From Trypanosoma brucei (Eukaryota), in assembly GCA_000002445.1 (NCBI GenBank), contig CH464491.1:4672001-4736000 (forward strand): a stretch of DNA of 64,000 bases, written 5' to 3'. Shown piece after piece: positions 2,314 through 35,287 of the stretch. Every line of letters starts with the position of its first letter. Position 1 is the stretch's first letter. The notes below the pieces were generated by a model, which did not search any database, was not told where the DNA came from, and saw only the letters and a program-made list of their open reading frames with translations. Made by a program: the position numbers and the translations under genes.

Positions 2314-3649
2314 TGCGGCTACGTTTACAGTCCGTTTTCTGTTTGTGTTGCGCTAAAGATATGCACAATTTCCCTACTTGTGTTTGTGGGTGTTATTCTT
2401 TTTTACTGGTTGTGGTCTCTGAGGCTGTTGTCTTGCTTCGTCTACTGGATGCTGATCGTATTTGTTTGCACAATGTGCTCATGGAAAAAAAGCCGTTTCC
2501 ACACTGGTTGGTGCTAACGGAGGACTGCTGTTAGACAATTGTTCTCGTTGCTTAAGGTGCGTAGCCAGAAATTAAGTCAATATTTTGCCTTGGGCTCTTT
2601 ATTGCTCTTTGAAATACCACAAAACAACCTTCTACCCATTTTCCCTATCACTCCTATTATATTTATGTTAAGCACTCTTAGCTCCTATACTTTCCGTTAA
2701 TAACATTGTTGAAAAATCCTTACCATTGTCCATGATTCTCAGGAAATGTTTGGAAACTAAGTTAGTCGCTTCATTTTTCCACTGTTGAATGAAATCCCCT
2801 CACTTACAATTTACATTCATTGCTGTTATTCTCCTCATTTGTAGTTCGTATTTTTTTCGGTGTTAATCTTTTATTTAGCTACGCTTCATATATTGTTTCA
2901 TTTTCTGTATTCTCTGTGTTTTTATATGCTCTTGTTGTCGTTGTGTGTGAAACGTCTGCTCGCATTATTTTTGTATGACGCCTCTTTTTCGCGTATAACC
3001 AATTGTTGATAGGTGATAGCTTGTTTTGTAATCCGAACCGGACGTTACCTCCATTTAAACACTTCTAGCTCTTCTTTATCGTCAGTCATCACATTTCCTC
3101 TCTATTCCCTTTATTAGGCAAACAACGCCCCATATTCACTCTATCAACTAGCACCGACTTCTAAACTTAATTCTTAAATTGTAGATCCGCTATCATGACA
3201 AAATACACAGCTGCTACCGCATCAGTTGTTGTATTTATTATTTTCGATTAACGTCCGGCGCTTTATCAACTCCTGTTCTTCTTTATGTATTATTTTCCTC
3301 TGTGTTACGTAGCATCGCGTACACTTGTGTCGTTCTAGATTTCCACTACTTTTTTTTTCCTGACACTGTTTATGAACATAATGTGCAGATTCTATTCGGT
3401 CTGTAGATTGTATACTGCACCCTTTCTCTCCCTCATCTCTCTCCTTATCCTCTGCTTGTTTATTATGATGACAATCTTTATGCTTGTGTTTTCCACTGCT
3501 CATGTTACATCTTCATTTCTGTTTTTGTCTTTCTGCGTTTCCTTATATAATATTCTTTGTACTCTCTTTCACATATTTCCCCACTCACTCCCATTACACC
3601 ATTGCCATTGTTTTTGGTGTTTCCGCATCTGCTGCCAATTGGTTATCAT

Positions 3650-18724: not shown

Positions 18725-21700
18725 TTTTTTTTTAAATTTCCTTCGTGCCTTCGTGGGAGTTTCCCCCCACTGGCGCGGCCATCAGCCATCACTGTAGAGC
18801 CCTGAGATGCTATCGGTCTGGCGACTGTGGCAGAGTCTCCCTTTTTTATTCAGCCTAACACACTCTCTATAATTTTTGTTGTAGCTCCTCAGTTGAACGG
18901 AATACAGCAGATGGGGCGAGAAGCCCCCCACCCCAGACTCTCTAAAAGATGTCAATTAGCAATCCTTTTGTTTTGATTTTTGTTATTCGTTTATTATTCT
19001 CTTCCCCTCTTTCTGTTTCTGTTGCTTGTTGACTGCATACCCCCTCTGTCTCTGAGGGTGTCTGGACTATTCCTGCGTCCGGTGCTTTTCCTGCTAGCTC
19101 CACGGTCGGCAATAAGGGGGGAAGTTGCAGAAGGGAGAGTGGGTTGTATGACTGTTACATTAGGGGAAGACTTCACCTGCGGCCTGCTCCGTTCAACCGC
19201 AATGAGAAATTGCGCCAGCCTTTTAAAGAAACATACATCCTGCACACACACACTTTCTACCGCAAACCTGACACGTAACTCCTTCAAACCGGGACAGCTC
19301 ATCAAGTGCAGTGACGTTTCTTCGCAGTCGCCGCGTTGGCTGGTAACAGCGTGCTCTACCTTCATACCGTGCATCTTCTTTTGATATAGGGTGAGGCCAG
19401 TTTTGCTAGCACACTGCCTTCCGCATGTCGGGCACACCAACATGGATGCGTTTGTATGCGGGGAATCAGTGGCACACAATTTTGTGCTTTTGCTGCATTT
19501 AAGCTCGATTCCCTCACCTTTGTGGAAAGCCTTACAGTGTCGGATGAGGGAGTCCCTGCAACTGAGCACTTTTTGGCACACACCACACTGCACCTCGCCT
19601 TTCCCCGGGACGTCAACGTTTCCCTCACGGGCACGCTTACGGGGGAATTGCACCACCACCACGGTACCGTCCTCCGTCACTATGCTCTTATGTTTGAATT
19701 TCTTGTGTAGTGACAGGGAAGAGCGTGTACCAATGCTCGCCTCGCACAGGTCACATTGAAACGGCAGCTTCCGTGTATCCTGAGGGGCTGGCGCTGCTGG
19801 GGCTCTACCATCTCCTTGCAATGAGTCCTCGTTCTCTCGCCCCCTTTTGACGCGGCAACTACCGCTGCCTATGCCATGTATTGTTTGAAGGTGGTGTAGT
19901 AGTCGGCCTGGCACTGCGAATTTGGAGGCACAGAGGGTACAATGAAGCACCTGCGGTCTCATCGGGACTCGTGTGCTCGATGGTAGAGGAACAATCGCCA
20001 CCACTGGAGGGGGCTCCGGGGGGATGTCCACTGCAGGTGTTGCATCGCCGTATTTGATCCTCCGGAGGGCATCAGCTCGCATAAAGCCATGTTTGTTTAC
20101 CATATGCGTTACAGCACTCGAGCGGCATTGGTATGTGGCATCACATTCCGTACATTTGGTCGGTTCGGAGGTTCTCTGAAGAGTACGTGTCGCAACAGTT
20201 GAGGCTGTTTGTATTGTTGGCCCGATCGCTGCATGTTGCGGGTTACACCATCGGCACTGTGGAGGCACACTCGGGTTGATCTTTCGCAACATCCATCCAT
20301 AGTGTCTTGAAGACCCAACCCGAAAGCGTTCCAGTCCCGTTTCTTCTTCCCTCGTCAGTTCTTCTTTATGTTTTGTTGGAAAGTGGTTGCCCGTGATACC
20401 AAACCTATGAGTGTTCTCATGGACTTCTTCCGACATAAGCACTCGCTTCGCATAAGCAATGATGTCGGGGATCCATGTGACTCGCAACTGTGGTAAATCA
20501 GCGGCCTTTTTCGCCATTTCGTCACAAACCTCATTCGGTTTCACGCCACAATGGCCAAACACAAATTGCAGTCGGATACGCATCTTTCTTCTCTGAACTT
20601 GAAGCAGAAGCCTCCATAGTCGTCTCAGAATTGGGTCCGTTACGGCTAGAGAGCCTGTCTGCAGTGCTGTTAACATTGACAGCGAGTCAGAGAAGATGGA
20701 CAACCTGCTCGGTGTGCTTCTGTATGCCGGAAGCCATTTCAGCAGCCGTTGCAGTCCTATCTCTAATGCTACGCATTCCGCTCTGTAACTGCATGAGAGT
20801 TCCCCTGCTCCGGTTTTGAGTGCACAAATCAGCGTGTTGTTTCTATAGAGCAGGGCAGCTGCCCCGGACTTCTCACCGAGGGACACGGATTCATCAGTTC
20901 AAAATTCGTAGTGCTCTCGTCGCGGTGACTCCTTCCCCCTCCGTGCAAAATGCCGTGCAATCCACTTCTCAGAAGCCTCCCTTTTGACATCGTCAGGGTC
21001 ATCAGCGCACACAGGCTTTATCTGCGTGTGAAATTGTGGTCAGCAGCTGTGGCGAAGCGTCGATGTCTCTAGTGGGTGCTCGCGTGGCTCAATGTGGAGG
21101 TGGGGATAAGACCGCATGATGCGGGAATGTAAGACTCTGACTGGGTGTTTGCTGTGGTATACTTCCTCACCACTGCGCCGCAAAAATCCGCCTCGTGACT
21201 CACACATCAGCATGAATTTCATGCTGCGCACAAGAGTGGTCGTCTTGAGTGGCAGGAGGTTTGCTTCCAGCAGAGAGTCCTCTTTGCGTGTTCCATGTGG
21301 TATGCCGGCTATGATGCGACTGGCTTTGTTTTGTGCTGATGCAAGGAGGTCGCGACTTCGTTTCGAAGCGTCCCAGTACCATACCTCAATGCCATACATG
21401 GTGTGTGCCTGTACGAGTTCCAGATGAAAAGCTCTCAGTACTTGTCGTCTTGGCCCCCATGTAGAAGCTGAGATGGCTGCTATCTGCAGTAGTCTGAAGT
21501 CCATCTTGCGTCTCGTTTCGGCCGCATGTGTTGCCATCCCCTGCAGACACTGGAATGTTATTCCGAGAAGCTTCGGTGTCCTGTCAGCTCCTATTCTTTC
21601 GCCGTCCAGTTGTAATGTAAGGTGATAGCGCTCTATACACCCGAAGAGTGTGCACTTTGTTTTCGCTACGTTGACAGACATGAAGTACTCTTTTGACCAC

Positions 21701-23186
21701 TGTAACACCACGTTTAGACCGCATTGTAGTGTGTGGTTGATGACATCCCTCTCTGTGTGCCTCGCAAGTAGCGTCAGGTCGTCTGCAAAGAATCCGTGCT
21801 GCAGTAACGGCACTTCTGCAAGGCGTTGGCTCAACGAGTTCATGACAATAATGAACATGATTGGGCCAAGTACAGTTCCTTGTGGCACTCCTCGCTCAAA
21901 TGTTCTGCTGCTGGAAAGCTTCTCCTTGAATCTCACTCTGCCAGTTCGGTTACTCAGAAATGATACGCACCACTTCACAATGTGGGGTGATACCTTCATT
22001 CTGTGCATTTCCCTCGCAATTTTGTCGTGGTCTACTGTATCGAATGCCTTCTCGTAGTCAACGAATACAGCACCCGTACGATATTGGTGCGTGGGGCGGC
22101 AGAGGGCAGTGCGGACGTGCAGGAGTTGTTCGAGCGTTGAGCATCCGTGGCAAAAGCCTGATTGCTGCGTCGTCAGCTGGGACTCAACAGTGTCTCTAAG
22201 CCTCGCGGCAATTATGCGCTCCATGACTTTGCAGAGACAGCTCGTGGGCGTCACAGGCCTGTAAGAATCGAGGTCCTCCGCCTTTTTTCCGGCATTCAGG
22301 ATGGGGATGATAACACCAGTCTTCCATGCAGGCGGCACGACTCCCGTTCGTAGGCTCTCATTGAATAGCCTCAGAACAACATTCAGCGCTGTTCTACCGA
22401 GGTGTTGCAGTGCCTCGTTGTATAAGCAATCAGGTCCGGTTGCGGATCCACTCAGTAGCTGTTTGATCGATCTCCGTAGTTCAGCCATCGTGATGAGACT
22501 GAACTCACTCGCTATCGTCTTTACGGGTGCCGGTGTTGTTAGTGGTCATTGCGCATATACCTTCTTGACAATGTGCCAACTGCAGCGGTCTGACACCGCA
22601 AGTCTGGAGCATAGCGTGCTCCATCTCTTCTTTGTGGTACGGTCCAGGATCTGCTTACGCGTGGCTACCAACTTTTCCCTTCGGTGGGAGGGTCCGCATC
22701 CAGCGATCTCTTCATCGAGTTTCGCGAGCGCAGGTGTCCAATGTGGTGGCGGAGCTCAATTTCTGTTCCAGGGTGTTGACGTTCTTCTCTCTACCAATTT
22801 TCCTGCAGAGCTCGTCAACCTTGAGACGGAAATTCCTCCAGTTAGCTTTTAGCCATGCGTACATGGGCTTTCGAAGCCGCGGGCAACTCAGTGCATCTGT
22901 GTCGTCTCCAACGATAACGTCGAAAAATATGTGATGGTGATCGCTATCGGGAGAATACAGCGATGTCCACGTGTACACTGTGCAATTCCTTGACAGTGTC
23001 ACATCAGGGGTGGACTCCCCGTGGTGGCGCGCGTACCTGGTGCACTCACCAGTGTTGCAGACCAGAAACTGGTTGTCAATGCACCACTGTGTGAGGGTTT
23101 CACCCTTGGTATTTGGTGGGCTCGCTCGATCCCATGCCAACGCGTGTGCGTTAGCGTCTGCACCGATGAGCTGGGCACCGTCAGTC
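18725..23186 (-). mobile_element. ingi #3 (at least 4.46 kb visible), minus strand, degenerate; the 5' ~650 bp is missing or lies in the adjoining 100-N gap
   Basis: The 3' end is read as T9 at 18725-18733. ORFs are 18994..20886(-) 630 aa (RNase H plus C2H2 fingers), 21040..22488(-) RT and 22712..23608(-) endonuclease part (...TDGAQLIGADANAHALAWD). Confidence 0.85.
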
Positions 23187-23286
23187 NNNNNNNNNNNNNN
23201 NNNNNNNNNNNNNNNNNNNNNNNNNNNNNNNNNNNNNNNNNNNNNNNNNNNNNNNNNNNNNNNNNNNNNNNNNNNNNNNNNNNNNN
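23187..23286. other. Assembly gap (100 N)
   Basis: A run of N. Confidence 1.
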
Positions 23287-23484
23287 AATGCTTGCTATGA
23301 TGCTGGCCGCTTGACCTTTGGGCCCCTGCAGATTTTTTTTCGTCAGGTGGGAGGTGAAGAACAACATGGGCACTACCCGGAAGCGCACTGTTTCCCGCGA
23401 CGGTGTGACGCAACGGCCCCAGCGTTTCTCCCGCAAATGTTACAACGGGGAAACCGCATGCAACCGGGCGATTTTCGTTTAAGT

Positions 23485-23990
23485 CCCTGGGGGGGCCGGC
23501 CACCTCAACGTGGTGCCAGGGTGCAGTACCCCGTATCATCGGGGGAAGCCAAGAGCCAACAGCGTTCCTTTCATGGGGAACACTGCTGTGCTCCGGATAC
23601 GGCGTCATACAGCACAGGGATCAGCAGCGTCTTGCTGGGACACCGGTCTTCATTTGTCGGTCCCTGGGCACGTGGCAAGCGTGCCATCGGCACTATCATC
23701 CGCACTAAAATGCTGCTGTCTGGTGATGTGGACCTCAAAAAAAGGATTGCTAATTGACAACTTTTGGAGAGTCTAGGGTGGGGGGCTTCTCGCCCCATCT
23801 GCTGTATTCCGTTCATATGCGGAAATACAACAAAAATTATAGAGGGTGTGTTAGGATGAATGAAAAAGGGAGACTCTGCCACAGTCGCCAGACCGATAGC
23901 ATCTCAGGGCTCTACGGTGATGGCTGATGGCCGCGCCAGTGAGGGGAAACTCCCACGAAGGCACGAAGACAACTTTTAAAAAAAAAAAAA
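23485..23990 (+). mobile_element. RIME (truncated ingi derivative: ~250 bp of 5' end joined to ~250 bp of 3' end)
   Basis: The 5' end is CCCTGGGGGGGCCGGCCACCTCAACGTGGTGCCAGGGTGCAGTACCCCGTATCATCGGGGG. The internal junction sits in the 2A region (…CTGTCTGGTGATGTGGA then CCTCAAAAAAAGGATTGCTAATTGACAAC). The 3' end is ...GGCACGAAGACAACTTTT followed by A13. Confidence 0.85.
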
Positions 23991-24773
23991 GTGAATGTAC
24001 AACGAATCGCACACTCAAAATAATGACTTTCCATCAAATAAATAGTGAACTGGACACCTCGGCTTCTTGCACAGAAACCTTCATACAATCGTATCTGTGC
24101 GCACCTTATGTAACAAATGGTAGAGAAAAATTAGGAGAATACATGAAAAGGTGAAAGGGGCGTCGACGATTAAGAAAAAAAAATATTTCGGGCACATCAC
24201 TCAGTGTAAAATATTAAACACAATATGTGACATCCATCTGGTAGAAATGAAAACCGTAAACGACACGCTCTGTAGGAAATTACGGTTAGGCAGCTAAGTA
24301 TTAATATCTGATGTAAACAATGTTGCAATGTTTTCATTAACACATATGTGCTTCTACAAAAAATGCATATCGTATCTAATGTTAACATCGTTAAGTAATA
24401 AAAAAAACGAATTAAAGTAACCAAATTTTAAAAAGGGATCATACGCTCGTTGTTAACTGTGCTTACTGCCGAGAGGTTAATTTTGATAGAGTCCACAACC
24501 CTCCTAACACAGAGTTATACCGTGACATCACCTGCCGTGATTATTTGTTTCCACACTCTTTTGTTGATGTTTTCCCCGTTTACTCTTCTCCTTCCTCTCT
24601 TTTATTGATTTCCCACAGCCGCTCTTTCATGATTTACATCCATGTCGGTTACTTCCCCTCCCCGCAATATTTTCAATAGCTAACATAGCGACGGTATTAA
24701 CATTAAATTGCACAAGGTAATGTTTCATACTGTTGGCCCAAAATAAATGAACATATTTGCGATCTTCCTCACT

Positions 24774-25545
24774 TCATTTGCCCGCTGTATCGTTGCACAA
24801 TTGTTGGCGTCTCATCTTTCTGACGGCAACATGCTGAGCACAAATAACTCCCCACCCAAATTCATTCATAAAATTTCCCAAAAACATATCCCTATTCGCA
24901 TCACATGTTAGAAGGACAGGATTCTCGAGCATATTAAGGGCTGTTCCTGTTTTGTTATCATGTGATCCAGCAGTTTGGAATTGCAACATCACCACCGTTT
25001 ATTTTTCGTTGATTTTCAACTTCGGTGGTTGTGTCGCAATCCACAACAAACAAGGTATCAAATAGTGGGAAAATGGGTGGGAACCCGTAAAGTTGCATGG
25101 TGTGTGGAGAGTTGATTGTTCCCTCATGGATATTTGGAAGGCGCTGTGCTTTACCGAAGTTCAGGAAAATATCGCTCAGGCGGTTCAACACGCTGACATC
25201 CTGCATCGTTTCCTGTTTCCACTCCGCGGTTGCGGGCAATGACCCTATCATGTCAATAAAAGGAAATAATACCCTGGGAAAATCGAAAGCACTTGCGGCA
25301 TCACCTTCAAAACACAAGACAAAACTGATCTGTATATGAGTGACTCTCCTCACACAATGTTGTCGTGCAACGTCTCTGCGCGACTGGAAAGTTACCACCC
25401 TCAATGCGGATTCAAAGTGCAGCGTGCACACATACGTTTCGGAATCTCCTGTACGATAGATGCGACCAAGGTTGATGAATTTATGCAGCAGCAGTCTTCC
25501 AATCCATTTGCCATATGGGCGCAACGTTCCAAGATACAACACAGA
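24774..25545 (-). pseudogene. C-terminal fragment of an unidentified protein-coding gene (not VSG or ingi), frameshifted, truncated on its 5' side by the ingi #4 insertion
   Basis: ORF 24958..25701(-) reads …YVCTLHFESALRVVTFQSRRDVARQHCVRRVTHIQISFVLCFEGDAASAFDFPRVLFPFIDMIGSLPATAEWKQETMQDVSVLNRLSDIFLNFGKAQRLPNIHEGTINSPHTMQLYGFPPIFPLFDTLFVVDCDTT… and continues in another frame as ORF 24774..24995(-). I cannot assign a family from sequence alone. Confidence 0.35.
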
Positions 25546-25546
25546 C

Positions 25547-25566
25547 ATATATATATATATATATAT
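25547..25566. repeat. (AT)10 dinucleotide microsatellite
   Basis: ATATATATATATATATATAT. Confidence 0.9.
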
Positions 25567-25640
25567 GCATGCATGAACTCCTATAAAATATGCGGTAACA
25601 GGCAATACTCTGGCATCATGCTTTAGTTTGTGAAGGAGAA

Positions 25641-28600
25641 TTTTTTTTTTTANAATTTTCTTCGTGCCTTCGTGGGAGTTTCCCCCCACTGGCGCGGCCA
25701 TCAGCCATCACTGTAGATCCCTGAGATGCTATCGATCTGGCGACTGTGGCAGAGTCTCCATTTTTTTTTCGGCCTAACACACTCTCTATAATTTTTGTTG
25801 TAGCTCCGCAGTTGAACGGAATACAGCAGATGGGGCGAGAAGTCTCCCACCCCAGACTCTCCCAAAGATGTCAATTAGCAATCCTTTTGTTTTGATTTTT
25901 GTTATTCGTTTATTATTCTCTTCCCCTATTTCTGTTTCTGTTGCTTGTTGACTGTATACCCCCTCTGTCTCTGAGGGTGTCTGGACTATTCCTGCGTCCG
26001 GTGCTTTTCCTGCTGGCTCCACACTCGGCAATAAGGGGGGAAGTTGCAGAAGGGAAAGTGGGTTGTATGACTTTTACCTTAGGTGAGGACTTCACCTGTG
26101 GCCGGCTCCGTTCAACCGCAATGAGAAACTGTGCCAGCCTTTTAGAGAAACATACATCCTGCACACACACACCTTCTACCGCAAACCTGACACGTAACTC
26201 CTTCAAACCGGGACAGCTCATCAGGTGCAGCGACGTTTCTTCGCAGTCGCCGCGTTGGCTCGTAACAGTGCGCTCTGCCCCCATACCGTGCATCTTCTTT
26301 TGATGTAGGGTGAGGCCAGTTTTGCTAGCACACTGCCTTCCGCATGTCTGGCACACCAACATGGATGTGTTTGTATGCGGGGAATCAGTGGCACCCAATT
26401 TTGTGATTTTGCTGCATTTAAGCTCGACTCCCTCACCTTAGTGGAAAGCCTTACAGTGTCGGATGAGGGAGGCCCCGCAACTGAGCACTTTTTTGGCACA
26501 CACCACACTGCACCTCGCCCTTCCCCGGGACGTCAACGTTTCCCTCACGGGCACGCTTACGAGGGAATTGCACCAACACCACGGTACCGTCCTCCGTCAC
26601 TATGCTTTTATGTTTGAATTTCTTGTGTAGTGACAGGGAAGAGCGTGTACCGAAGCTCGCCTCGCACAGGTCACATTGAAACGGCAGCTTCCGTGTATCC
26701 TGAGAGGCTGGCGCTGCTGGGGCTCTACCATCTCCTTGCACTGAGTCTTCGTTTTCTCGCCCCCTTTTCACGCGGCAACTACCGCTGCCTATGCCATGTA
26801 TTGTTCTAAGGTGGTGTAATAGTCGGCCTGGCACTGCGAATTTGTAGGCACAGAGGGTACAATGAAGCACCTGCGGTCTCATCGGGACTCGTGTGCTCGA
26901 TGGTAGAGGAACGATCGCCACCACTGGAAGGGGCTCCGGGGGGATGTCCACTGCAGGTCTTGCATCGCCGTATTTGATCCTCCGGAGGGCATCAGCTCGC
27001 ACAAAGCCATGTTTGTTTACCATGTGCGTTACAGCACTCGAGCGGCATTGGTATGTGGCATCACATTCCGTACATTTGGTGGATTCGGAGGTTCTCTGAA
27101 GAGTGCGTGTCGCAACAGGTGTGGTTGTTTGTATTGTTGGCCCTATCGCTGCATGTTGCGGGTTACACCATCGGCACTGTGGAGGCACACTCGGGTTGAT
27201 CTTTCGCAACATCCATCCATAGTGTCTTGAAGACCCAACCCGAAAGCGTGCCAGTGCCGTTTCTTCTTCCCTCGTCAGTTCTTCCTTATTTTTTGTTGGA
27301 AAGTGGTTGCCTGTAATACCAAACCTATGAGTGTTCTCATGGACTTCTTCCGACCTAAGCACTCGCTTCGCGTAAGCAATGATGTCCGTTATCCATGTGT
27401 CTCGCAACTGTGGTAAATCAGCGGCCTTTTTGGCCATGTCATCACAAACCTCATTCCGTTTCACGCCACAATGGCCAAATACAAATTGCAGTCGGATACG
27501 CATCTTCCTTCTCTGAACTTGAAGCAGAAGCCTCCATAGTCGTCTCAGAATTGGGTCCGTTACTGCTAGGGGGCCTGTCTGCAGTGCTGTTAACATTGAC
27601 AGCGAGTCAGAGAAGATGGACAACCTGCTCGGTGTGCTTCTGTATGCCGGAAGCCATTTCAGCAGCCGTTGCAGTCCTATCTCTAATGCTACGCATTCCG
27701 CTCTGTAACTGCATGAGAGTTCCCCTGCTCCTGTCTTGGGTGCACAAATCAGCGTGTTGTTTCTATAGAGCAGGGCAGCTGCTCCGGACTTCTCACCGAG
27801 GGACACGGATCCATCAGTCCACAATTCGTGGTGCTCTCGCCGCGGTGGCTCCTTCCCCCTCCGTGCAAAATTCCGTTCAATCCACTTTTCGGAAGCCTCC
27901 CTTTTGACATCGTCAGGGTCATCAGCGCACACAGGCTTTATCTGCGTGTGAAATATCGGTCGGCAGCTGTGGCGGAGCGTCGATGTCTCTAGTGGGTGCT
28001 CGCGTGGCTCAATGCGGAGGTGGGGGTAGGCCAGCATGATGCGGGAATGTAAGACTCGGCTTGGGTGTTTGCTGTGGTATACTTTTTCAGCACTGCGCCG
28101 AAAAACATCGGCCTCGTGACTCACACATCAGCATGAATTTCATGCTGCGCACAAGAGTGGTCGTCTTGAGTGGCAGGAGGTTTGCTTCCAGCAGAGAGTC
28201 CTCTTTGCGCGTCCCATGTGGTATGCCGGCTATGATGCGACTGGCTTTGTGTTGTGCTGATGCAAGGAGGTCGCGACTTCGTTCCGAAGCGTCCCAGTAC
28301 CATACCTCAATGCCATACATGGTGTGTGCCTGTACGAGTGCTAGATAAAAAGCTCTCAGTACTTGTCGTCTTAGCCCCCATGTAGAAGCTGAGATGGCTG
28401 CTATCTGCAGTAGTCTGAAATCCATCTTGCGTCTCGTTTTGGCCGCATGTGTTGCCATCCCTTGCAGACTCTGGAATGTTACTCCTAGAAGCTTCGGTGT
28501 CCTGTCAGCTCCTATTCTTTCGCCGTCCAGTTGTAATGTAAGGGGGTGACGCTCTATACACCCGAAGAGTGTGCACTTTGTTTTCGCTACGTTGACAGAC

Positions 28601-30791
28601 ATGAAGTACTCTTTTGACCACCGTAACACCACGTTTAGACCGCATTGTAGTGTGTGGTTGATGACATCCCTCTCTGTGTGCCTCGCAAGTAGCGTCAGGT
28701 CGTCTGCAAAGAATCCGTGCTGCAGTAACGGCACTTCTGCAAGGCGTTGGCTCAACGAGTTCATGACAATAATGAACATGATTGGGCCAAGTACAGTTCC
28801 TTGTGGCACTCCTCGCTCAAATGTTCTGCTGCTGGAAAGCTTCTCCTTGAATCTCACTCTGCCAGTTCGGTTACTCAGAAATGATACGCACCACTTCACA
28901 ATGGGGTTATACCTTCATTCTGTGCATTTCCCTCGCAATTTTGTCGTGGTCTACTGTATCAAATGCCTTCTCGTAGTCAACGAATACAGCACCCGTACGA
29001 TATTGGTGCGTGGGACGGCAGAGGGCAGCGCGGATGTGCAGGAGTTGTTCGAGCGTTGAGCATCCGTGGCAAAAGCCTGATTGCTGCGTCGTCAGCTGGG
29101 ACTCAACAGTGTCTCTAAGCCTCGCGGCAATTATGCGCTCCATGACTTTGCAGAGACAGCTCGTGGGCGTCACAGGCCTGTAAGAATCGAGGTCCTCCGC
29201 CTTTTTTCCGGCATTCAGGATGGGGATGATAACACCAGTCTTCCATGCAGGCGGCACGACTCCCGTTCGTAGGCTCTCATTGAATAGCCTCAGAACAACA
29301 TTCAGCGCTGTTCTACCGAGGTGTTGCAGTGCCTCGTTGTATAAGCAATCAGGTCCGGCTGCGGATCCACTCGGTAGCAGTTTGATCGATCTCCGTAGTT
29401 CAGCCATCGTGATGAGACTGAACTCACTCGCTATCGTCTTTATTGGTGCCGGTGTTGTTAGTGGTCATTGCGCATATACCTTCTTGACAATGTGGCAACT
29501 GCAGCGGTCTGACACCGCAAGTCTGGAGCATAGCGTGCTCCATCTCTTCTTTGTGGTACGGTCCAGGACCTGCTTACCCGTGGCTACCAACTTTTCCCTT
29601 CGGTAGGAGGGTCCGCATCCAGCGATCTATTCATAGAGTTTCGCGAGCTCAGGTGTCCAATGTGGTGGCGTTACTCTGCAGCCACGGGGGACGGAGACCT
29701 TCGTTGCAATGCGGATGGCGGAGCTCAATTTCTGTTCCAGGGTGTTGACGTTCTTCTCTCTACCAATTTTCCTGCAGAGCTCGTCAACCTTGAGACGGAA
29801 ATTCCTCCAGTCAGCTTTTAGCCATGCGTACATGGGCTTTCGAAGCCGCGGGCAACTCAGTGCATCTGTGTCGTCTCCAACGATAACCTCGAAAAATATG
29901 TGATGGTGATCGCTATCGGAAGAATACAGCGATGCCCACGTGTACACTGTACAATTCCTTGACAGTGTCACATCAGGGGTGGACTCCCCGTGGTGGCGTG
30001 TGTAAATGGTGCACTCACCAGTGTTGCAGACCAGAAACTGGTTGTCAATGCACCACTGTGTGAGGGTTTCACCCTTGGTATTTGGTGGGCTCGCGCGATC
30101 CCATGCCAACCCGTGTGCGTTAGCGTCTGCACCGATGAGAGCTGGGCACCGTCAGTCGTCAGAAGCGTATCTAGGTCATTTGCCGTGAAGGTGTGTTTTG
30201 GTGGGATGTATGCCGACGTGACAGTCAGCGCCGTTCCACGTGCAAGGTGAATTGTTGCATGCACTTGTTCAATGCGACCAACAACGGCTATACCGGTCTC
30301 GACTGGTAGGTCCCCCCTCACTAGTATTGATACACCACCTCCTTTGCAGTTACGAGCTATTCCGTGATGTTGGTAGCCAGCAACGCTAAAGCAACCCGCC
30401 CTTTCAGGCGTCATCCTTGTCTCACTCAACAAACAAAAGGCGATCCGCTCATCAACAAGGGTTTTGTGGAGTGCTAATCTCTTTCCTTGAGATAGCCCGG
30501 CGCAGTTCCACTGCATCCCGCGCAACGACGGGCTGGGATTCTCTTCCATATCACCGGACAGCAGCATCTTAGTGCGGATGATACTGCTGATGGCACGCTG
30601 GCACGTGCCCAGGGACCGACAAATGAAAAACGGTGTCCCAGCAAGACGCTGCTGATCCCTGTGCTGTATGATGCCGTAGCCGGAGCACAGCAGTGTTCCC
30701 CATGAAAGGAATGCTGCTGGCTCTTGCTTTCCCCGATGATACGGGGTACTGGACCCTGGAACCACGTTGAGGTGGCCGGCATCGCCAGGGA
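25641..30791 (-). mobile_element. ingi #4, full length (~5.15 kb), minus strand, degenerate
   Basis: T11 at 25641-25651 precedes the reverse-complemented ingi 3' end. The 5' end is CGCCAGGG at 30784-30791 (reverse complement CCCTGGCGATGCCGGCCACC). ORFs are 25913..26398, 26451..28124 (557 aa), 28087..28899, 28907..29407, 29627..30109 and 29968..30891(-). A 2-bp insertion sits near 30147. Confidence 0.9.
30529..30552 (-). other. Mutated 2A-like motif in ingi #4: DMEENPSP (the Gly of NPGP replaced by Ser)
   Basis: The reverse complement GACATGGAAGAGAATCCCAGCCCG encodes DMEENPSP in ORF 29968..30891(-). Confidence 0.7.
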
Positions 30792-31327
30792 CCGTGAGGG
30801 GAACCGCCCAACCCGTGGTAGGGTTGTTCGATGCTTTCCGACTTGCAGCCGCTCTTTCCATGGTGATAGCATCTTGGTCTGAAATCGCCAATTTTAGCTC
30901 GTATTTCCGAGCTGCTTTCCTTGCCAGCCTTTAAATGGTCTTCCAAACATAATCGAAGCGGCGTAAATATTGCCTATTCAATCGTTACCTGATCCATTTT
31001 AGCGACAAAGTCTCCACATCCACCTGTTGTAACGGTAACTCCTGTTTCTCAGTATCAGAGGCCACCTTGGTTTGATGGGTGCGTCGGAGAATGCTGTGTC
31101 CCTGAAATAAAGGTCCTGTCCTCTTATTCCTCCTCGTTGGATTTGGAACCTTCCACAGTGACGTAGCCCACTTCCCCTCCGTTTCTACATGAGCGCCGTT
31201 AAATCTACTGACTTGTTTAGTACTGCCACGGACGGTCCCAAATAGCTAACAGTGCTCCGACGAAATTCCATGGGGTCCGTGTGTTTTTCCATCTGGGCAA
31301 GAATGCATGGATAGAGGTCTTTTTGTA

Positions 31328-33122
31328 TCACCGCTGCGGAAACATGAGGTAGAGACCCCCTTTTATAGAATGTACTGTCATTCCGTAAGGTTTCAGAATG
31401 TTTTCCATGCCTCTTGTGCTGATGGTGGTTATTTTTTCTTCATCCGCCCTCTGCCTTACGACTTTCTTCAACTTTTTGGCGTCCTCGCAGGCGATGACCG
31501 CATATCTCGCTGCTCTGTGAATGTCCAACTTGAAGGTCTTTGGGAGGATCACCCAGTCGACGATCAGTGCTCCCTCGACCTAAGGATGAGCGACAAAATT
31601 TTCCTTTTGCAGAGAAGCAATCTCTCCCCAACGGCTGGCAGTGACCCAAGCCAGACGCATGGCTACTCGATCTCTTTCCAGTTCCGTTGTGTCGACTATC
31701 ATGTCCAACTCCTACCTCTGCATGGGGCGGGCCTGCTTTATTGATTTTTCACCACTTTTCTCTGCAAACCCGACAAAAAGATTCTTTCTGGCGTCTTTCA
31801 CTCCACTAGCATCGACAAAAGAGTTCTTGTACACCTCACGGCGCTGCTTTTGGCCAGTTCCAAACTCACAATGAAGATGGGAACATTCTCTTTGCTTGGC
31901 TCCACGTTGTGTTTTGCCGCAAACTCGCAGAATCTTCTGAGAATCGACCGCCGCTGCTCCCAAGTTGACTGTCTCCTCATGACCCTTGCTATGCAATTCG
32001 ATTATGAAGCCCACACCACCATAACCCGATCGTGGGTGGGTGGTTTTATAATGATAACTTCGTTTACCGGTGTTTTCATAGGGAGTAAAACTGTGGATGC
32101 CATTTCTCTTGCTGGCTCTCTTCCCTCTGTGTCCTCCTCTACCCTCGGACATTTCCCAGCATTTCTCCTTTCACTGTCATACACTTGAGGGTCCTTGGCC
32201 CCGTAACCCTGGCCTCCTTAACGAAACATAACGTACTGTAGTGCCACAACTTCCCACATCGGAAGCATCGTATTGTGCAAACTCGGGGAGTCGGTTTTTG
32301 AACTTTTAGGTATGCTTGATGGTATGGATCCTCGTCCCTCCTTGAGTCATGTAGTGCCTTTGCCAACGCTTCCACTCGCACCCCCGGGTGGGCTCTCGCC
32401 GTTTGCAAGACTAGAAGATAAGTGTGAATCGACCTCCCGACTGTTATCCCACCTTCTGAGGGGCCTTCTGCTCCCAATGCAGTTATCCATGTCGCAAATC
32501 GGTCCCAGACGCATTATAACCCGTAATCCGATTTTTGTGCTAACGGAAACAGTTATTTGTGTGCAACTAAAAAACTGTTCCGGTGATATTTCCGTCATGT
32601 ATTCGATCTTCCCTTTAAACGTCCGTATATTTTCTTCAGAGGGAAAACCCTTGTCCACAAAGCTATTTTTTAACCGCCGAATGCCTCTGATTCCCACCTT
32701 GGGGTTCCGTAATTCTGTACCGCTTGATTTCTGTACCAACTATGATTTGTATGACTCAAAAGGGAACTTTATTTCTATTCTACCTTTTCCTTTCGATCTG
32801 ATTCATTCTTCACTCTCTCTTGTTCGAAAACTGGATCCGTTTTATGTGTGGCATCCGTATTTGCTAATATCTTCCAGTGGTGTAACTCAGCTGTTATCGA
32901 TTCAATGACAACGTCCAACCTATTGATATGGAAGAGCATCTGTTCCATTTCCACTCTCAAAGCACAATTTTCTTGCATGAATCTTTCAACTTGCCCATTC
33001 AGTTCCATCGACTGGTTTTGCATTCTCCATCGCTCATCATTCATTTGTGCTCTTGTCATTTCGTACTGTTGGTATAAATTAGACTTATTTGCCTCTAGTG
33101 CTAGACATTCGTTACAAAACAT
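31328..33122 (-). pseudogene. Degenerate Gag-like retroelement remnant: coiled-coil segment, CCHC zinc knuckle (CFRCGKLWHYSTLC) and downstream fragmented ORFs
   Basis: A minus-strand series of collinear frameshifted ORFs: 32775..33122, 32347..32739, 32139..32477 (C-x2-C-x4-H-x4-C at 32226-32267), 31712..32152 and 31328..31552. There is no VSG, ingi or 70-bp signature. Confidence 0.4.
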
Positions 33123-33699
33123 CTATTTTCTTCGAACATAGGCAACAATTCAATGTTTTAGGGCATATTGAAGGAAACAAACGAGGTCCGTAAATCGACG
33201 AAATTTACCTGCCCATTGTCAAAAATCACTCGAAGCTCTCCATTGTCAAGCCTCACCAAACCGTCTACGTGTACCGCTGTATTTCCAAAAGGGGGACGAT
33301 AGTCGAATGAAAATGCAGTCCGACCGCACTATTCCTCAAAAGCCCTTATTTCTTTCAAACTTATTTTCCATTCGGCATCCAATATAGTTGGAGTGGTTTT
33401 CGTTAGCATCTCTCAAAACTTAGAGCGATAACTTACTTTTTAAAAAATTACTTACCTTTTTAAAAAACTGTCCTCCGTAATAGTTTTTCTTTGCATATAT
33501 AAGAAAGGAAAGAACGAATAACAAAGAAAGTGGTAAAGATGGACGATTCCTTTCGCAAGCTCCCAACATTTCAAAAATTAGAATAAATACAAATATATAC
33601 AAATTTGGTATAAAAGTGGCTTGTGGGCATAAAATAGTAGATTGATAGAGCACTAAAATAAGTGCCATTCCAATTTAATTTATTTTGTTTATTACATCG

Positions 33700-33875
33700 A
33701 TATTAGATACGGCTATAATAATAATTTTAATAACTAAATTGATAGTATAGTATTGTAAGTGTGTATATACTAATATTATAATAAGAGCAGTAATGATAGT
33801 AATAATAATAATAATGATAATGATAGGAGTGTGTTGTGACTGTGTATATACGAATAATATTGTAATATGAGTGAT
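33700..33875 (+). repeat. 70-bp repeat tract (plus orientation)
   Basis: …GTGTGTATATACTAATATTATAATAAGAGCAGTAATGATAGTAATAATAATAATAATGATAATGATAGGAGTGTGTTGTGACTGTGTATATACGAATAATATTGTAATATGAG. Confidence 0.85.
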
Positions 33876-35287
33876 GGCAGAGAAAATATTTAGAAAAATA
33901 AATAGGAGCACTGAAAATAATGGCATGTGCGATTTCAAAGTGAGTGAAAAAGGGAGTAGAAGAGCTTGAGTTACATTATTAAAGCAAGCTGAAAAATGAA
34001 AGGAGAATGAGATATGGAATATGCGCGGCGTTACGCACAAACATGACTATGTGTATTATCATACACAAATAGAAGATAGAGGGATAAATAATAAAGGTAC
34101 AGAGTTCTTTGTACGGAACAACTGAGGTTTCTAATCTTTTCGCTGTGGCTGCGACGGAATACGAAAAAGGGGGAAATGAAGAAAATAGAGAGTGAAAAAT
34201 GATATGTAAAACATAAAGGTAAAATGATTGATATGTTTCCGATGGAAGCCGTTATTTAAATGAAAAAGGGACAGACTCTATCGAAGATGTGATGGAGACT
34301 GTAGTTTTTCAATCCCGTGGTGGATACTGATGTCCAGTTTGAAGAAGAGATTGGAAAAAGGGATTGGCCAAATGTAAAGTAGATCGAAGTCTTCTCATCA
34401 GATATATTCAATATGGCCAACAGTTTTAGCACCCAACATTATATTATCTGGGATAGGATTTAAAACTAAGAAATACCCGTGGATTAAACTGGAAAACAAA
34501 GGAAAAACAGAAATCTGATAACTGATTAACATAGTACATGTATGAAATGTTAGTGTAGATTAATATGATTTGTTAAAATTTTGCAACGCTGCGCCAAAAT
34601 CCTTACGAAAATACAGGTTATAGATTAATGCCATTCATAAGACTAGAAAATCATATAAGGATAAGAGCAGGCTAAGCTTTAGCGCAGGAAATAAAGGGGT
34701 CTCATAGAAACATAGATTGCAGATCGGACCAAAATTACCAAGCCTTAATAAAAAAAATGCAGCGACCACGTCAAGATGGTAAAATAAAAGCAGAGGGGTA
34801 GAGGCCCGTTTTCGAAAAGAAGAAGACAGGGATCATTTCAGAGTCGTGTAATGACCTACAAAAATTGCACAAAATAGAACAAACTAAAAGCCGCAAAGGT
34901 TGTGAGGTTAGACTAACATAGTAATATTTTTGATGGTTTGCGGTAATGAAGTGCTGGATAAGCTGGGATGAAGATGGTTGCGGTTTTATAGATAACGAGA
35001 AAATATGGCGTAGAGTTTTCAAAGTCTACTTTAACTGGAATTTTGAGTTTAAAACAACTTCAACCCGCTCAGAATCTTAAATCCATAAAATGCAGGATCA
35101 TACATCAACAAGGACTTATAAACAGAAGTAACCACAAAGACCAGTGTGGAGAACACAAAAACAGATAGGTGTAGGAATTTCAGGGGCGAACTTTAAAAAA
35201 TAAACCGGTTTCGCAATCTCTCAGTCATTCATTGCTCCAAAAGACTTTACCAGTAAGCAAGAACTACTAGGGTAGAAAAGGCAACGT

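What the first reader, a model, noticed from the sequence alone, without database searches (positions are those of the whole stretch)
31328..33122. Gag-like remnant with a retroviral-type CCHC zinc knuckle next to ingi #4
Between the 5' end of ingi #4 (30791) and the first plus-strand 70-bp repeat (33700) lies a ~2 kb segment with no VSG, ingi or 70-bp signatures. Its minus strand carries a collinear series of frameshifted ORFs: a coiled-coil-like segment (32775-33122), a middle segment (32347-32739), a perfect C-x2-C-x4-H-x4-C knuckle CFRCGKLWHYSTLC (32226-32267), and further fragments down to 31328. A coiled-coil, then a CCHC nucleocapsid knuckle, then downstream ORFs is the order found in Gag or Gag-Pol of LTR/DIRS/VIPER-type elements. 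ingi itself has C2H2 fingers, not CCHC. This may therefore be a degenerate member of a second retroelement family, possibly VIPER/SIRE-like, truncated by the ingi #4 insertion. Alternatively it could be a degenerate CCHC RNA-binding protein gene.
Basis: seen in the sequence. Interest (0 to 1): 0.6.

Follow-up and report, generated by a model that had tools for sequence, protein, structure and literature searches.

The report
Dead VIPER retroelement cut by ingi
The zinc-knuckle segment is the decayed front half of a VIPER retrotransposon, a known tyrosine-recombinase mobile element of trypanosomes. It is cut off at its reverse-transcriptase gene by an ingi element, so it is an ordinary, already catalogued kind of genomic fossil.

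Summary
The minus strand carries CFRCGKLWHYSTLC at 32226-32267 within a collinear series of broken ORFs.

The remnant is larger than stated, running from about 33561 to 30791:
- Gag-like ORF1 lies at 33409-32139. It is homologous to ORF1 of a published T. theileri VIPER copy and to a T. grayi protein, and the four knuckle residues are invariant.
- The "further fragments" are ORF2, a tyrosine recombinase (32109-31185). It matches T. theileri VIPER YR at E=3e-91 and T. cruzi VIPER YR at E=2e-23. A family profile hits Cre at E=3e-9, and the predicted fold matches only tyrosine recombinases.
- ORF3 survives only as its pre-RT N-terminus (to 30791). Its homology stops at the first base of the ingi Pr77 (30790).

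No VIPER RT/RH sequence exists elsewhere in the window, and the ingi 3' flank is unrelated. The copy carries at least 12 in-frame stops and 5 frameshifts, so it is dead. It is not TATE, not an LTR element, and not a cellular CCHC gene.

Degenerate VIPER copies in T. brucei, and the CCHC box in VIPER Gag, are both published. Interest is low.

The parts
33410..33561 (-). 5' leader of the VIPER remnant, upstream of the Gag-like ATG. The true 5' end lies somewhere between 33561 and the 70-bp repeats at 33715.
   Evidence: Block 33561-33519 matches T. grayi contig L002 159-200 (79% over 43 nt, E=0.004). It sits at the same distance upstream of the Gag-like start in both sequences. The support is weak and the 5' terminus is not defined.
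32139..33409 (-). Gag-like ORF1 remnant, about 423 codons. It comprises an N-terminal segment (33409-33122), a coiled-coil-like segment (33122-32775), a conserved middle block (32739-32554), and a C-terminal block with the knuckle (32552-32139, stop included). It carries 5 in-frame stops and 3 frameshifts.
   Evidence: tblastn with T. theileri VIPER ORF1 aa 8-412 gives 33412-32217, E=1.4e-24. T. grayi P0018 matches at E=9e-41 and 47% identity over the C-terminal 38%. The three-way alignment is A4.
32226..32267 (-). CX2CX4HX4C zinc knuckle, CFRCGKLWHYSTLC, near the C-terminus of ORF1.
   Evidence: It aligns with CYRCGRIGHYSSTC (T. theileri) and CFRCGRTGHYSTTC (T. grayi), and C, C, H, C are invariant. 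The T. theileri knuckle passes the Pfam zf-CCHC cut-off (21.2 bits against 20.8). The window copy does not score, because GH has become WH.
31185..32109 (-). Tyrosine recombinase ORF2 remnant, about 308 codons read across three frames, with 4 in-frame stops and 2 frameshifts. The catalytic signature is still readable:
- box-I Arg in RLAWVTASRWGEIASL (31657-31610)
- Lys in LPKTFKLD (31546-31523)
- HSIK|RG, split by a frameshift (31381-31329)
- His in EKHTDP (31289-31272)
- Tyr in STVSYLG (31256-31236)

The stop is at 31185-31187, the same position as in T. theileri.
   Evidence: The conceptual protein hits T. theileri P0001 at E=3e-91 and 56% identity over 100% of the query, and also hits T. 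grayi and T. vivax. T. cruzi Dm28c VIPER YR matches at E=2e-23. A 62-member family profile hits Cre at E=3e-9. The AF2 model (pLDDT 90) matches only tyrosine recombinases.
30791..31272 (-). N-terminal, pre-RT part of ORF3 (RT/RNase H). It has 3 in-frame stops and ends in PTTGWAVPLTV at 30822-30790. Further upstream, ORF3 overlaps ORF2 in another frame, back to about 32065.
   Evidence: tblastn with T. theileri ORF3 aa 347-504 gives 31272-30790 at 40% identity. Upstream HSPs run back to 32065, with a combined E=5e-49. T. grayi L002 also matches. The break falls about 20 residues into the RT_like domain annotated in that copy.
25641..30790 (-). ingi #4. It is itself degenerate, and it bounds and truncates the VIPER remnant. 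It is not part of VIPER.
   Evidence: There is an exact Pr77 match at 30790-30761. 5' ends of the window's ingi copies are aligned. Its ORFs carry EN, RNase H and C2H2 domains. The poly(A) ends at about 25641.

Best explanation
The segment from about 33561 to 30791 on the minus strand is the 5' ~2.7 kb of a degenerate VIPER element. VIPER is the kinetoplastid tyrosine-recombinase retrotransposon, placed in the DIRS order as 'VIPER-like'. The window is an African-trypanosome VSG-array region.

The remnant keeps three parts in order:
1. A complete-length Gag-like ORF1, with a coiled-coil-like middle and a C-terminal CCHC knuckle.
2. A complete-length tyrosine-recombinase ORF2.
3. The first part of the overlapping RT/RNase H ORF3.

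It ends abruptly at the first nucleotide of an ingi non-LTR retrotransposon, just as the RT domain begins. The RT/RH domains and the 3' split direct repeats are absent from the window.

What is inferred from the family rather than shown here: in a functional element the knuckle-bearing Gag-like protein would bind the element's RNA, ORF3 would reverse-transcribe it, and the Cre-like recombinase would integrate a circular DNA copy.

What is shown here: this copy cannot do any of that. It has at least 12 in-frame stops and 5 frameshifts and lacks RT/RH. It is an inert fossil.

The truncation is associated with the ingi. The cause is either an insertion followed by loss or rearrangement of the downstream part, or an ingi-mediated recombination. 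That step is inferred and not resolved.
For: - **Collinear homology.** All three ORFs match T. theileri locus L001 in order: ORF1 at E=1.4e-24, ORF2 at E=4e-61 (conceptual protein against L001, E=1.8e-92), and ORF3 at E=5e-49.
- **Link to the published family.** L001 is NBCO01000001.1:184039-200881. The supplement of PMC6681497 lists it as a VIPER copy with a 421-aa ORF1 'CHbox', a 319-aa ORF2 and an RT_like ORF3.
- **Link to the type element.** The T. cruzi Dm28c VIPER YR block hits 31660-31236 at E=2e-23. The TATE YR block gives nothing.
- **Same order in a third species.** T. grayi contig L002 shows Gag, then YR, then the ORF3 N-terminus.
- **Knuckle conservation.** The knuckle residues are invariant in the three Gag-likes. 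The T. theileri knuckle passes the Pfam zf-CCHC cut-off.
- **Tyrosine-recombinase identity.** 521 relatives were found. R, K, H..K.G, H and Y are nearly invariant among 62 of them. The profile hits Cre at E=3e-9, with the catalytic Arg, Lys and HxxR aligned. The AF2 model has pLDDT 90.2, and all 38 Foldseek PDB hits at E<=1e-3 are tyrosine recombinases.
- **Truncation point.** VIPER homology ends at 30790/30791, and the ingi Pr77 begins at 30790.
- **Literature.** VIPER is degenerate in T. brucei, where all analysed copies are listed as 'degenerated', with 36 YR and 58 RT hits in TREU927. About 76 copies are reported (PMC12278014). The CX2CX4HX4C box in VIPER Gag is known (PMC6681497).
Against: - No terminal split direct repeats were found, and the 3' end is missing. 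A defining structural feature therefore cannot be checked, and the 5' terminus is not defined.
- Pfam does not recognise the YR of this clade. The best score is E~0.006-0.08, below the cut-off.
- The first structure model, built from a shallow alignment, failed.
- Gag-like homology is low (24-33% identity) and rests on only two relatives.
- No T. brucei VIPER consensus or T. brucei genome was available for a direct comparison.
- The ingi 3' flank is not VIPER. The flanks share only an imperfect TTCCCCTCAC / TTCTCCTTCAC similarity, so a simple insertion is not demonstrated.
Confidence: 0.95

Rival explanations
1. The segment is a degenerate cellular CCHC zinc-knuckle RNA-binding protein gene.
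For: An isolated CCHC knuckle is common in trypanosomatid RNA-binding proteins (general knowledge). Pfam finds no retroelement domain in the knuckle ORF itself.
Against: The only homologues of the knuckle-bearing ORF are ORF1 of a curated VIPER copy and a T. grayi ORF. Both are followed by a YR and an RT ORF. In the window the knuckle is followed directly by a tyrosine recombinase and the start of ORF3.
Confidence: 0.01
2. The segment is a remnant of an LTR-type (Ty3/Ty1/retrovirus-like) Gag-Pol element, with protease, RT and DDE integrase.
For: A coiled-coil followed by a CCHC knuckle, in that order, resembles Gag/nucleocapsid. There is one weak hit of the knuckle peptide to zf-CCHC_5, a viral Gag finger, at E=0.028.
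Against: The ORF downstream of Gag is a Cre-like tyrosine recombinase, not a protease or DDE integrase. There are no RVP, rve or LTR signals. No typical LTR elements are reported in trypanosomatids (PMC12278014).
Confidence: 0.01
3. The segment is a copy of TATE, the sister tyrosine-recombinase retroelement of kinetoplastids, rather than VIPER.
For: TATE has the same Gag-like, YR, RT/RH layout.
Against: The T. theileri TATE YR block gives no hit in the window (best E=2.4, elsewhere), whereas the VIPER YR blocks give E=3e-33 and 2e-23. TATE counts are zero in T. brucei. The YR here is ~300 aa as in VIPER, not the 800+ aa seen in TATE.
Confidence: 0.02
4. The segment is a domesticated or still-expressed VIPER-derived host gene, like the VIPER-derived gene reported in Leishmania (Viannia), Leptomonas and Crithidia.
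For: VIPER domestication has a precedent (PMC5146736). The catalytic YR residues and the knuckle cysteines are still readable.
Against: There are at least 12 in-frame stops and 5 frameshifts across the three ORFs. The longest intact ORF is 146 aa and lies in a non-homologous frame. The location is a subtelomeric VSG/ingi junkyard. No T. brucei protein of this family is annotated.
Confidence: 0.01

Closest known systems
VIPER (vestigial interposed retroelement) of Trypanosoma. The type element is from T. cruzi (Vazquez 2000; Lorenzi 2006). The closest sequenced relative used here is the T. theileri copy NBCO01000001.1:184039-200881 (Ribeiro 2019).
   Same: - The ORF order is the same: Gag-like with a C-terminal CX2CX4HX4C box, then a ~300-aa tyrosine recombinase, then an overlapping RT/RH ORF.
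- The YR is 56% identical to the T. theileri copy and ~43% identical to T. cruzi.
- The ORF2 stop codon is at the same position.
- The copy is degenerate, as published for all analysed T. brucei copies.
   Different: - This copy is truncated ~20 residues into the RT domain by an ingi and lacks RT/RH and the 3' split direct repeats.
- It is riddled with stops and frameshifts.
- The knuckle has GH changed to WH.
- No SIRE-like or A1 terminal repeat could be identified.
DIRS-order tyrosine-recombinase retrotransposons (DIRS1, Ngaro, PAT) and Crypton YR transposons
   Same: They use a Cre-like tyrosine recombinase instead of a DDE integrase or endonuclease. They have a Gag-like ORF1, sometimes with a CCHC box. 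Their YR and RT ORFs overlap.
   Different: Homology at sequence level was only detectable to VIPER-clade proteins and, by profile, to Cre. No direct test against DIRS1, Ngaro or Crypton sequences was run here. No methyltransferase or hydrolase domain is present.
Cre recombinase and other prokaryotic tyrosine recombinases (Xer, Tn1549 Int, lambda Int)
   Same: The VIPER-YR family profile aligns with the Cre N-terminal domain, the catalytic Arg, the Lys in TKT, and HxxR (E=3e-9). The predicted two-domain fold matches Cre/Tre, Xer and Int structures.
   Different: Sequence identity is only ~15%. The protein is encoded inside a eukaryotic retroelement. The window copy is a pseudogene.

Membership tests
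VIPER (VIPER-like subgroup of DIRS-order retrotransposons) | ORF1 is homologous to the VIPER Gag-like protein, with a CX2CX4HX4C box in Trypanosoma copies. | tested here: met
   tblastn with T. theileri VIPER ORF1 gives E=1.4e-24 over aa 8-412. The knuckle aligns and C/C/H/C are invariant. The CH-box in VIPER Gag is documented in PMC6681497.
VIPER (VIPER-like subgroup of DIRS-order retrotransposons) | ORF2 is homologous to the VIPER tyrosine recombinase, including that of the T. cruzi type element. | tested here: met
   The match to T. theileri VIPER YR is E=3e-91. The matches to the T. cruzi Dm28c and T. theileri VIPER YR blocks are E=2e-23 and 3e-33. The TATE block gives no hit.
VIPER (VIPER-like subgroup of DIRS-order retrotransposons) | ORF3 lies downstream of ORF2, overlaps it, and is homologous to VIPER ORF3. 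| tested here: met
   T. theileri ORF3 aa 82-504 maps to 32065-30790 in frames offset from ORF2, with a combined E=5e-49. T. grayi also matches.
VIPER (VIPER-like subgroup of DIRS-order retrotransposons) | Reverse transcriptase and RNase H domains are present in ORF3. | tested here: inconclusive
   The copy ends at the start of the RT domain. No VIPER RT/RH is found anywhere in the window with T. theileri probes at E<=1. The absence is explained by truncation at the ingi, so it does not argue against membership.
VIPER (VIPER-like subgroup of DIRS-order retrotransposons) | Split direct repeats are present: A1 at the 5' end, and B1-A2-B2 at the 3' end. | tested here: inconclusive
   No direct repeats of 20 nt or more flank or lie within 30000-35000 apart from the 70-bp repeats. 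The 3' end is missing, so the pairing cannot be tested.
Tyrosine recombinase superfamily (Cre/Int/Xer) | The catalytic R...K...HxxR...H/W...Y signature occurs in order, within a two-domain fold. | tested here: met
   - Among 62 relatives, R171, K202, H258, K261, G263, H288 and Y301 are nearly invariant.
- The profile hits Cre at E=3e-9.
- The AF2 model has pLDDT 90.2, and the top Foldseek hits are all Cre, Xer or Int, with probability 1.0.
- In the window copy all the motifs are readable, but HSIK|RG is split by a frameshift.
- Pfam Phage_integrase is not reached.
Pfam zf-CCHC (PF00098) retroviral-type zinc knuckle | The score reaches the family gathering threshold. The canonical form is C-x2-C-G-x2-G-H-x4-C. 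| tested here: not met
   The window knuckle does not score, because the Gly before the His is Trp. The orthologous T. theileri knuckle passes (21.2 bits against 20.8), and the T. grayi knuckle is just below (16.5 bits). The window motif is therefore a decayed descendant of a genuine zf-CCHC.
LTR retrotransposons / retroviruses (Ty3, Ty1, Bel-Pao) | An aspartic protease, a DDE integrase and flanking LTRs are present. | tested here: not met
   There are no Pfam RVP, rve or RVT hits in the fragments. There are no long terminal direct repeats. The enzyme after Gag is a tyrosine recombinase.
TATE | The YR and RT are homologous to TATE proteins, and the YR ORF is long (more than 400-800 aa). | tested here: not met
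   The TATE YR block finds nothing in the window. ORF2 is ~300 aa.

The most novel reading that the evidence does not exclude
The exact abutment of the first Pr77 base of the ingi on VIPER ORF3 might not be a one-off accident. There is no VIPER continuation and no clean target-site duplication. The junction could reflect a recurrent ingi insertion or recombination hot spot at the start of the VIPER RT domain, or a template-switch chimera. If other T. brucei VIPER copies are broken at the same codon, that would point to systematic inactivation of VIPER by ingi in African trypanosomes.

A milder reading also remains open. T. brucei VIPER copies may retain a full-length, alignable Gag-like ORF, although a 2019 survey recorded zero Gag hits in T. 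brucei.
Probability: 0.07. Interest if true: 0.3.

Novelty: already known. Interest (0 to 1): 0.1.

Why it matters
It matters little beyond annotation. The result correctly labels ~2.7 kb of otherwise unexplained sequence in a VSG array as a VIPER fossil. It explains the isolated CCHC knuckle. It also shows that ingi postdates VIPER decay or truncation at this locus.

The copy could contribute to reconstructing an ancestral African-trypanosome VIPER Gag and YR. Its Gag-like ORF is complete in length, and published surveys detected no Gag hits in T. brucei with T. cruzi queries.

One practical point for annotators: several intact VIPER YR genes in T. theileri and T. grayi are deposited under the name 'trans-sialidase', which is a misannotation.

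Tried and rejected
- **Pfam on fragments.** Scans of the individual ORF fragments and of the conceptual YR gave only sub-threshold hits, with Phage_integrase at E~0.08. Ten distant family members likewise gave a best E of 0.006.
- **PDB searches with shallow input.** phmmer with the single conceptual YR gave only P2 integrase at E=0.19. The shallow 11-sequence profile gave nothing. Only the 62-sequence profile reached Cre.
- **First AF2 run.** With the 14-sequence alignment it failed (pLDDT 38), and I did not use it for fold search.
- **Search for the missing VIPER 3' half.** I looked beyond the ingi poly(A) and across the whole window and found none.
- **Test for a 12-bp ingi target-site duplication.** I found only an imperfect, gapped similarity, so the result is not conclusive.
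- **The ORF beyond the ingi.** It is an orphan, found only in 99%-identical read assemblies, and is uninformative.
- **Identifying the window's source.** An exact look-up of a VSG ORF found nothing on record.
- **T. brucei VIPER DNA in the paper supplements.** None is held. A literature search for 'TbVIPER' gave nothing.
- **Flanking or split repeats.** None were found.
Full report
**Observation**

They include CFRCGKLWHYSTLC at exactly 32226-32267. A CX2CX4HX4C match occurs only twice in all six frames of the 64-kb window, against 0.06 expected from shuffles.

- An ingi whose Pr77 5' end begins at 30790. It has EN, RNase H and C2H2 ORFs, and its poly(A) ends near 25641.
- 70-bp-type repeats at 33715-33876.
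- A VSG (Pfam Trypan_glycop) further on.

**What the downstream fragments are**

Joining the three frames between about 32109 and 31185 gives a ~300-residue conceptual protein. It hits a 319-aa T. theileri protein at E=3e-91, with 56% identity over 100% of the query. It also hits proteins from T. grayi, T. vivax and T. melophagium. Several of these are deposited under the wrong name 'trans-sialidase'.

The T. theileri gene lies between a 421-aa ORF and an RVT_1-bearing ORF. That locus, NBCO01000001.1:184039-200881, appears in the supplement of Ribeiro et al. 2019 (PMC6681497). There it is listed as a VIPER copy with ORF1 421 aa 'CHbox', ORF2 319 aa, and ORF3 RT_like.

The YR block of the T. 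cruzi Dm28c VIPER, taken from the same supplement, hits 31660-31236 at E=2e-23. The block from the sister element TATE gives nothing.

**Collinearity**

tblastn with the three T. theileri ORFs tiles the window segment in order on the minus strand:
- ORF1 aa 8-412 maps to 33412-32217 (E=1.4e-24).
- ORF2 maps to 32109-31188.
- ORF3 aa 82-504 maps to 32065-30790, in frames offset from ORF2. This is the overlapping arrangement described for VIPER.

A T. grayi contig shows the same order. It also shares a short block 110-150 nt upstream of the Gag start, at window 33561-33519.

**The Gag-like ORF and the knuckle**

Only two relatives of ORF1 were found: the T. theileri VIPER ORF1 and T. grayi P0018 (E=9e-41). 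In the three-way alignment the knuckle Cys, Cys, His and Cys are invariant, and the motif sits near the C-terminus in all three.

The T. theileri knuckle reaches the Pfam zf-CCHC threshold (21.2 bits against 20.8). The window copy does not, because the conserved Gly before the His has become Trp.

The 'coiled-coil-like' segment is plausible but weakly supported. The evidence is a heptad test at p~0.04, plus weak myosin-tail, striatin and SKA2-type hits over the homologous part of the intact relatives.

Only 32739-32554 is in the homologous frame.

**Tyrosine-recombinase identity**

Pfam does not recognise this clade. A profile search of 1.8 billion representative proteins nevertheless found 521 relatives. 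Across 62 diverse members the nearly invariant residues are R, K, H-S-x-K-x-G, H and Y, in the order expected for tyrosine recombinases.

That profile hits Cre recombinase at E=3e-9. The alignment covers the N-terminal domain, the catalytic Arg, the TKT lysine and HxxR. An AlphaFold2 model of the T. theileri protein built with this alignment has pLDDT 90.2. All 38 of its Foldseek PDB matches at E<=1e-3 are tyrosine recombinases: Cre/Tre, Xer, Tn1549 Int and a mycobacteriophage Int.

In the window copy every motif is still readable. The positions are ASRWGE, PKTFK, HSIK|RG, KHTDP and VSYLG, with coordinates.

**State of the copy**

Disabling mutations by ORF:

| ORF | In-frame stops | Frameshifts |
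|---|---|---|
| ORF1 (Gag-like) | 5 | 3 |
| ORF2 (YR) | 4 | 2 (one splits HSIK\|RG) |
| Surviving ORF3 part | 3 | not counted separately |

The copy is therefore dead. ORF3 homology ends in PTTGWAVPLTV, whose last codon includes base 30790. That base is the first base of the ingi Pr77, and the break falls about 20 residues into the annotated RT domain.

No VIPER RT/RH sequence is present anywhere else in the window. The sequence beyond the ingi poly(A) is unrelated. It is an orphan ORF known only from 99%-identical read assemblies.

The two ingi flanks share only TTCCCCTCAC / TTCTCCTTCAC. So the truncation is associated with the ingi, but a simple insertion with a 12-bp duplication is not demonstrated. 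Later deletion or ingi-mediated recombination is equally possible, and this is inference.

**Comparison with what is known**

VIPER is described as Gag-like (446 aa), YR (335 aa) and overlapping RT/RH (942 aa) (PMC5146736). A CX2CX4HX4C box is reported in the Gag-like protein of T. cruzi, T. theileri and Leptomonas copies (PMC6681497). VIPER has been reported in T. brucei and T. vivax since Lorenzi et al. 2006.

All T. brucei copies analysed by Ribeiro et al. are 'degenerated', with 36 YR and 58 RT hits but 0 Gag hits in TREU927. A 2025 survey counts about 76 VIPER copies in T. brucei (PMC12278014).

The finding is thus one more copy of a known, catalogued fossil family.

**Rivals**

- A cellular CCHC gene is excluded by the collinear YR and ORF3 homology.
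- A Ty3/Ty1-type Gag-Pol is excluded because the enzyme after Gag is a tyrosine recombinase, and no protease, DDE integrase or LTR is present.
- TATE is excluded.
- A domesticated VIPER gene is excluded by the density of stops and frameshifts.

**Verdict**

Novelty is 'already known', and interest is low.

Three points remain open:
- the exact 5' terminus and whether a terminal repeat is present
- the mechanism of truncation
- whether the ingi/VIPER junction recurs elsewhere in the genome

All three need the T. brucei genome and the Repbase consensus, which were not available here.

Noticed in passing
window 23485-24005 (+): This is a RIME-like short element. It has a Pr77-type 5' end (3 mismatches) at 23485, and an ingi/RIME 3' tail with poly(A) near 23990-24005. 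It lies head-to-head with the 5' region of another minus-strand ingi, whose EN ORF is at 22712-23608, RT at 21040-22488, and RNase H/C2H2 at 18994-20886.
   Followed up: partly
window 24006-25640 (-): The segment between the RIME and the ingi #4 poly(A) holds an orphan ORF of ~188 codons (24958-25520). It has no Pfam hit. Its only homologues are 99%-identical ORFs in read-assembly (Logan) contigs, and one such contig covers window 25671-23990 at 98.8% identity. A (TA)n microsatellite sits at about 25545-25570. The nature of the segment is unknown.
   Followed up: partly
window 30791-30809 (-) and 23466-23484 (+): The 19 nt immediately upstream of the Pr77 start of ingi #4 (GGGCGGTTCCCCTCACGGT, which is VIPER ORF3 sequence) and of the RIME at 23485 (GGGCGATTTTCGTTTAAGT) agree at 11 of 19 positions. 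This may be chance or an ingi/RIME insertion-site preference.
   Followed up: no
window 2340-2381 (+): This is the only other CX2CX4HX4C match in the six-frame translation of the window, CLCCAKDMHNFPTC. It is probably a chance match in Cys-rich coding sequence.
   Followed up: no
L001 8001-8960 (T. theileri) and T. grayi proteins P0002, P0006, P0008: Intact or partial VIPER tyrosine-recombinase genes are deposited in public databases under the name 'trans-sialidase'. This is a misannotation that could propagate.
   Followed up: partly
window 33420-33463 (-): There is a short imperfect duplication or palindrome, aaaaggtaagtaatttttt / aaaaagtaagttatcgct, just upstream of the Gag-like ATG in the VIPER leader. 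Its significance is unknown.
   Followed up: no
window ~25653: There is an ambiguous base (N) in the A-rich tail of ingi #4.
   Followed up: no
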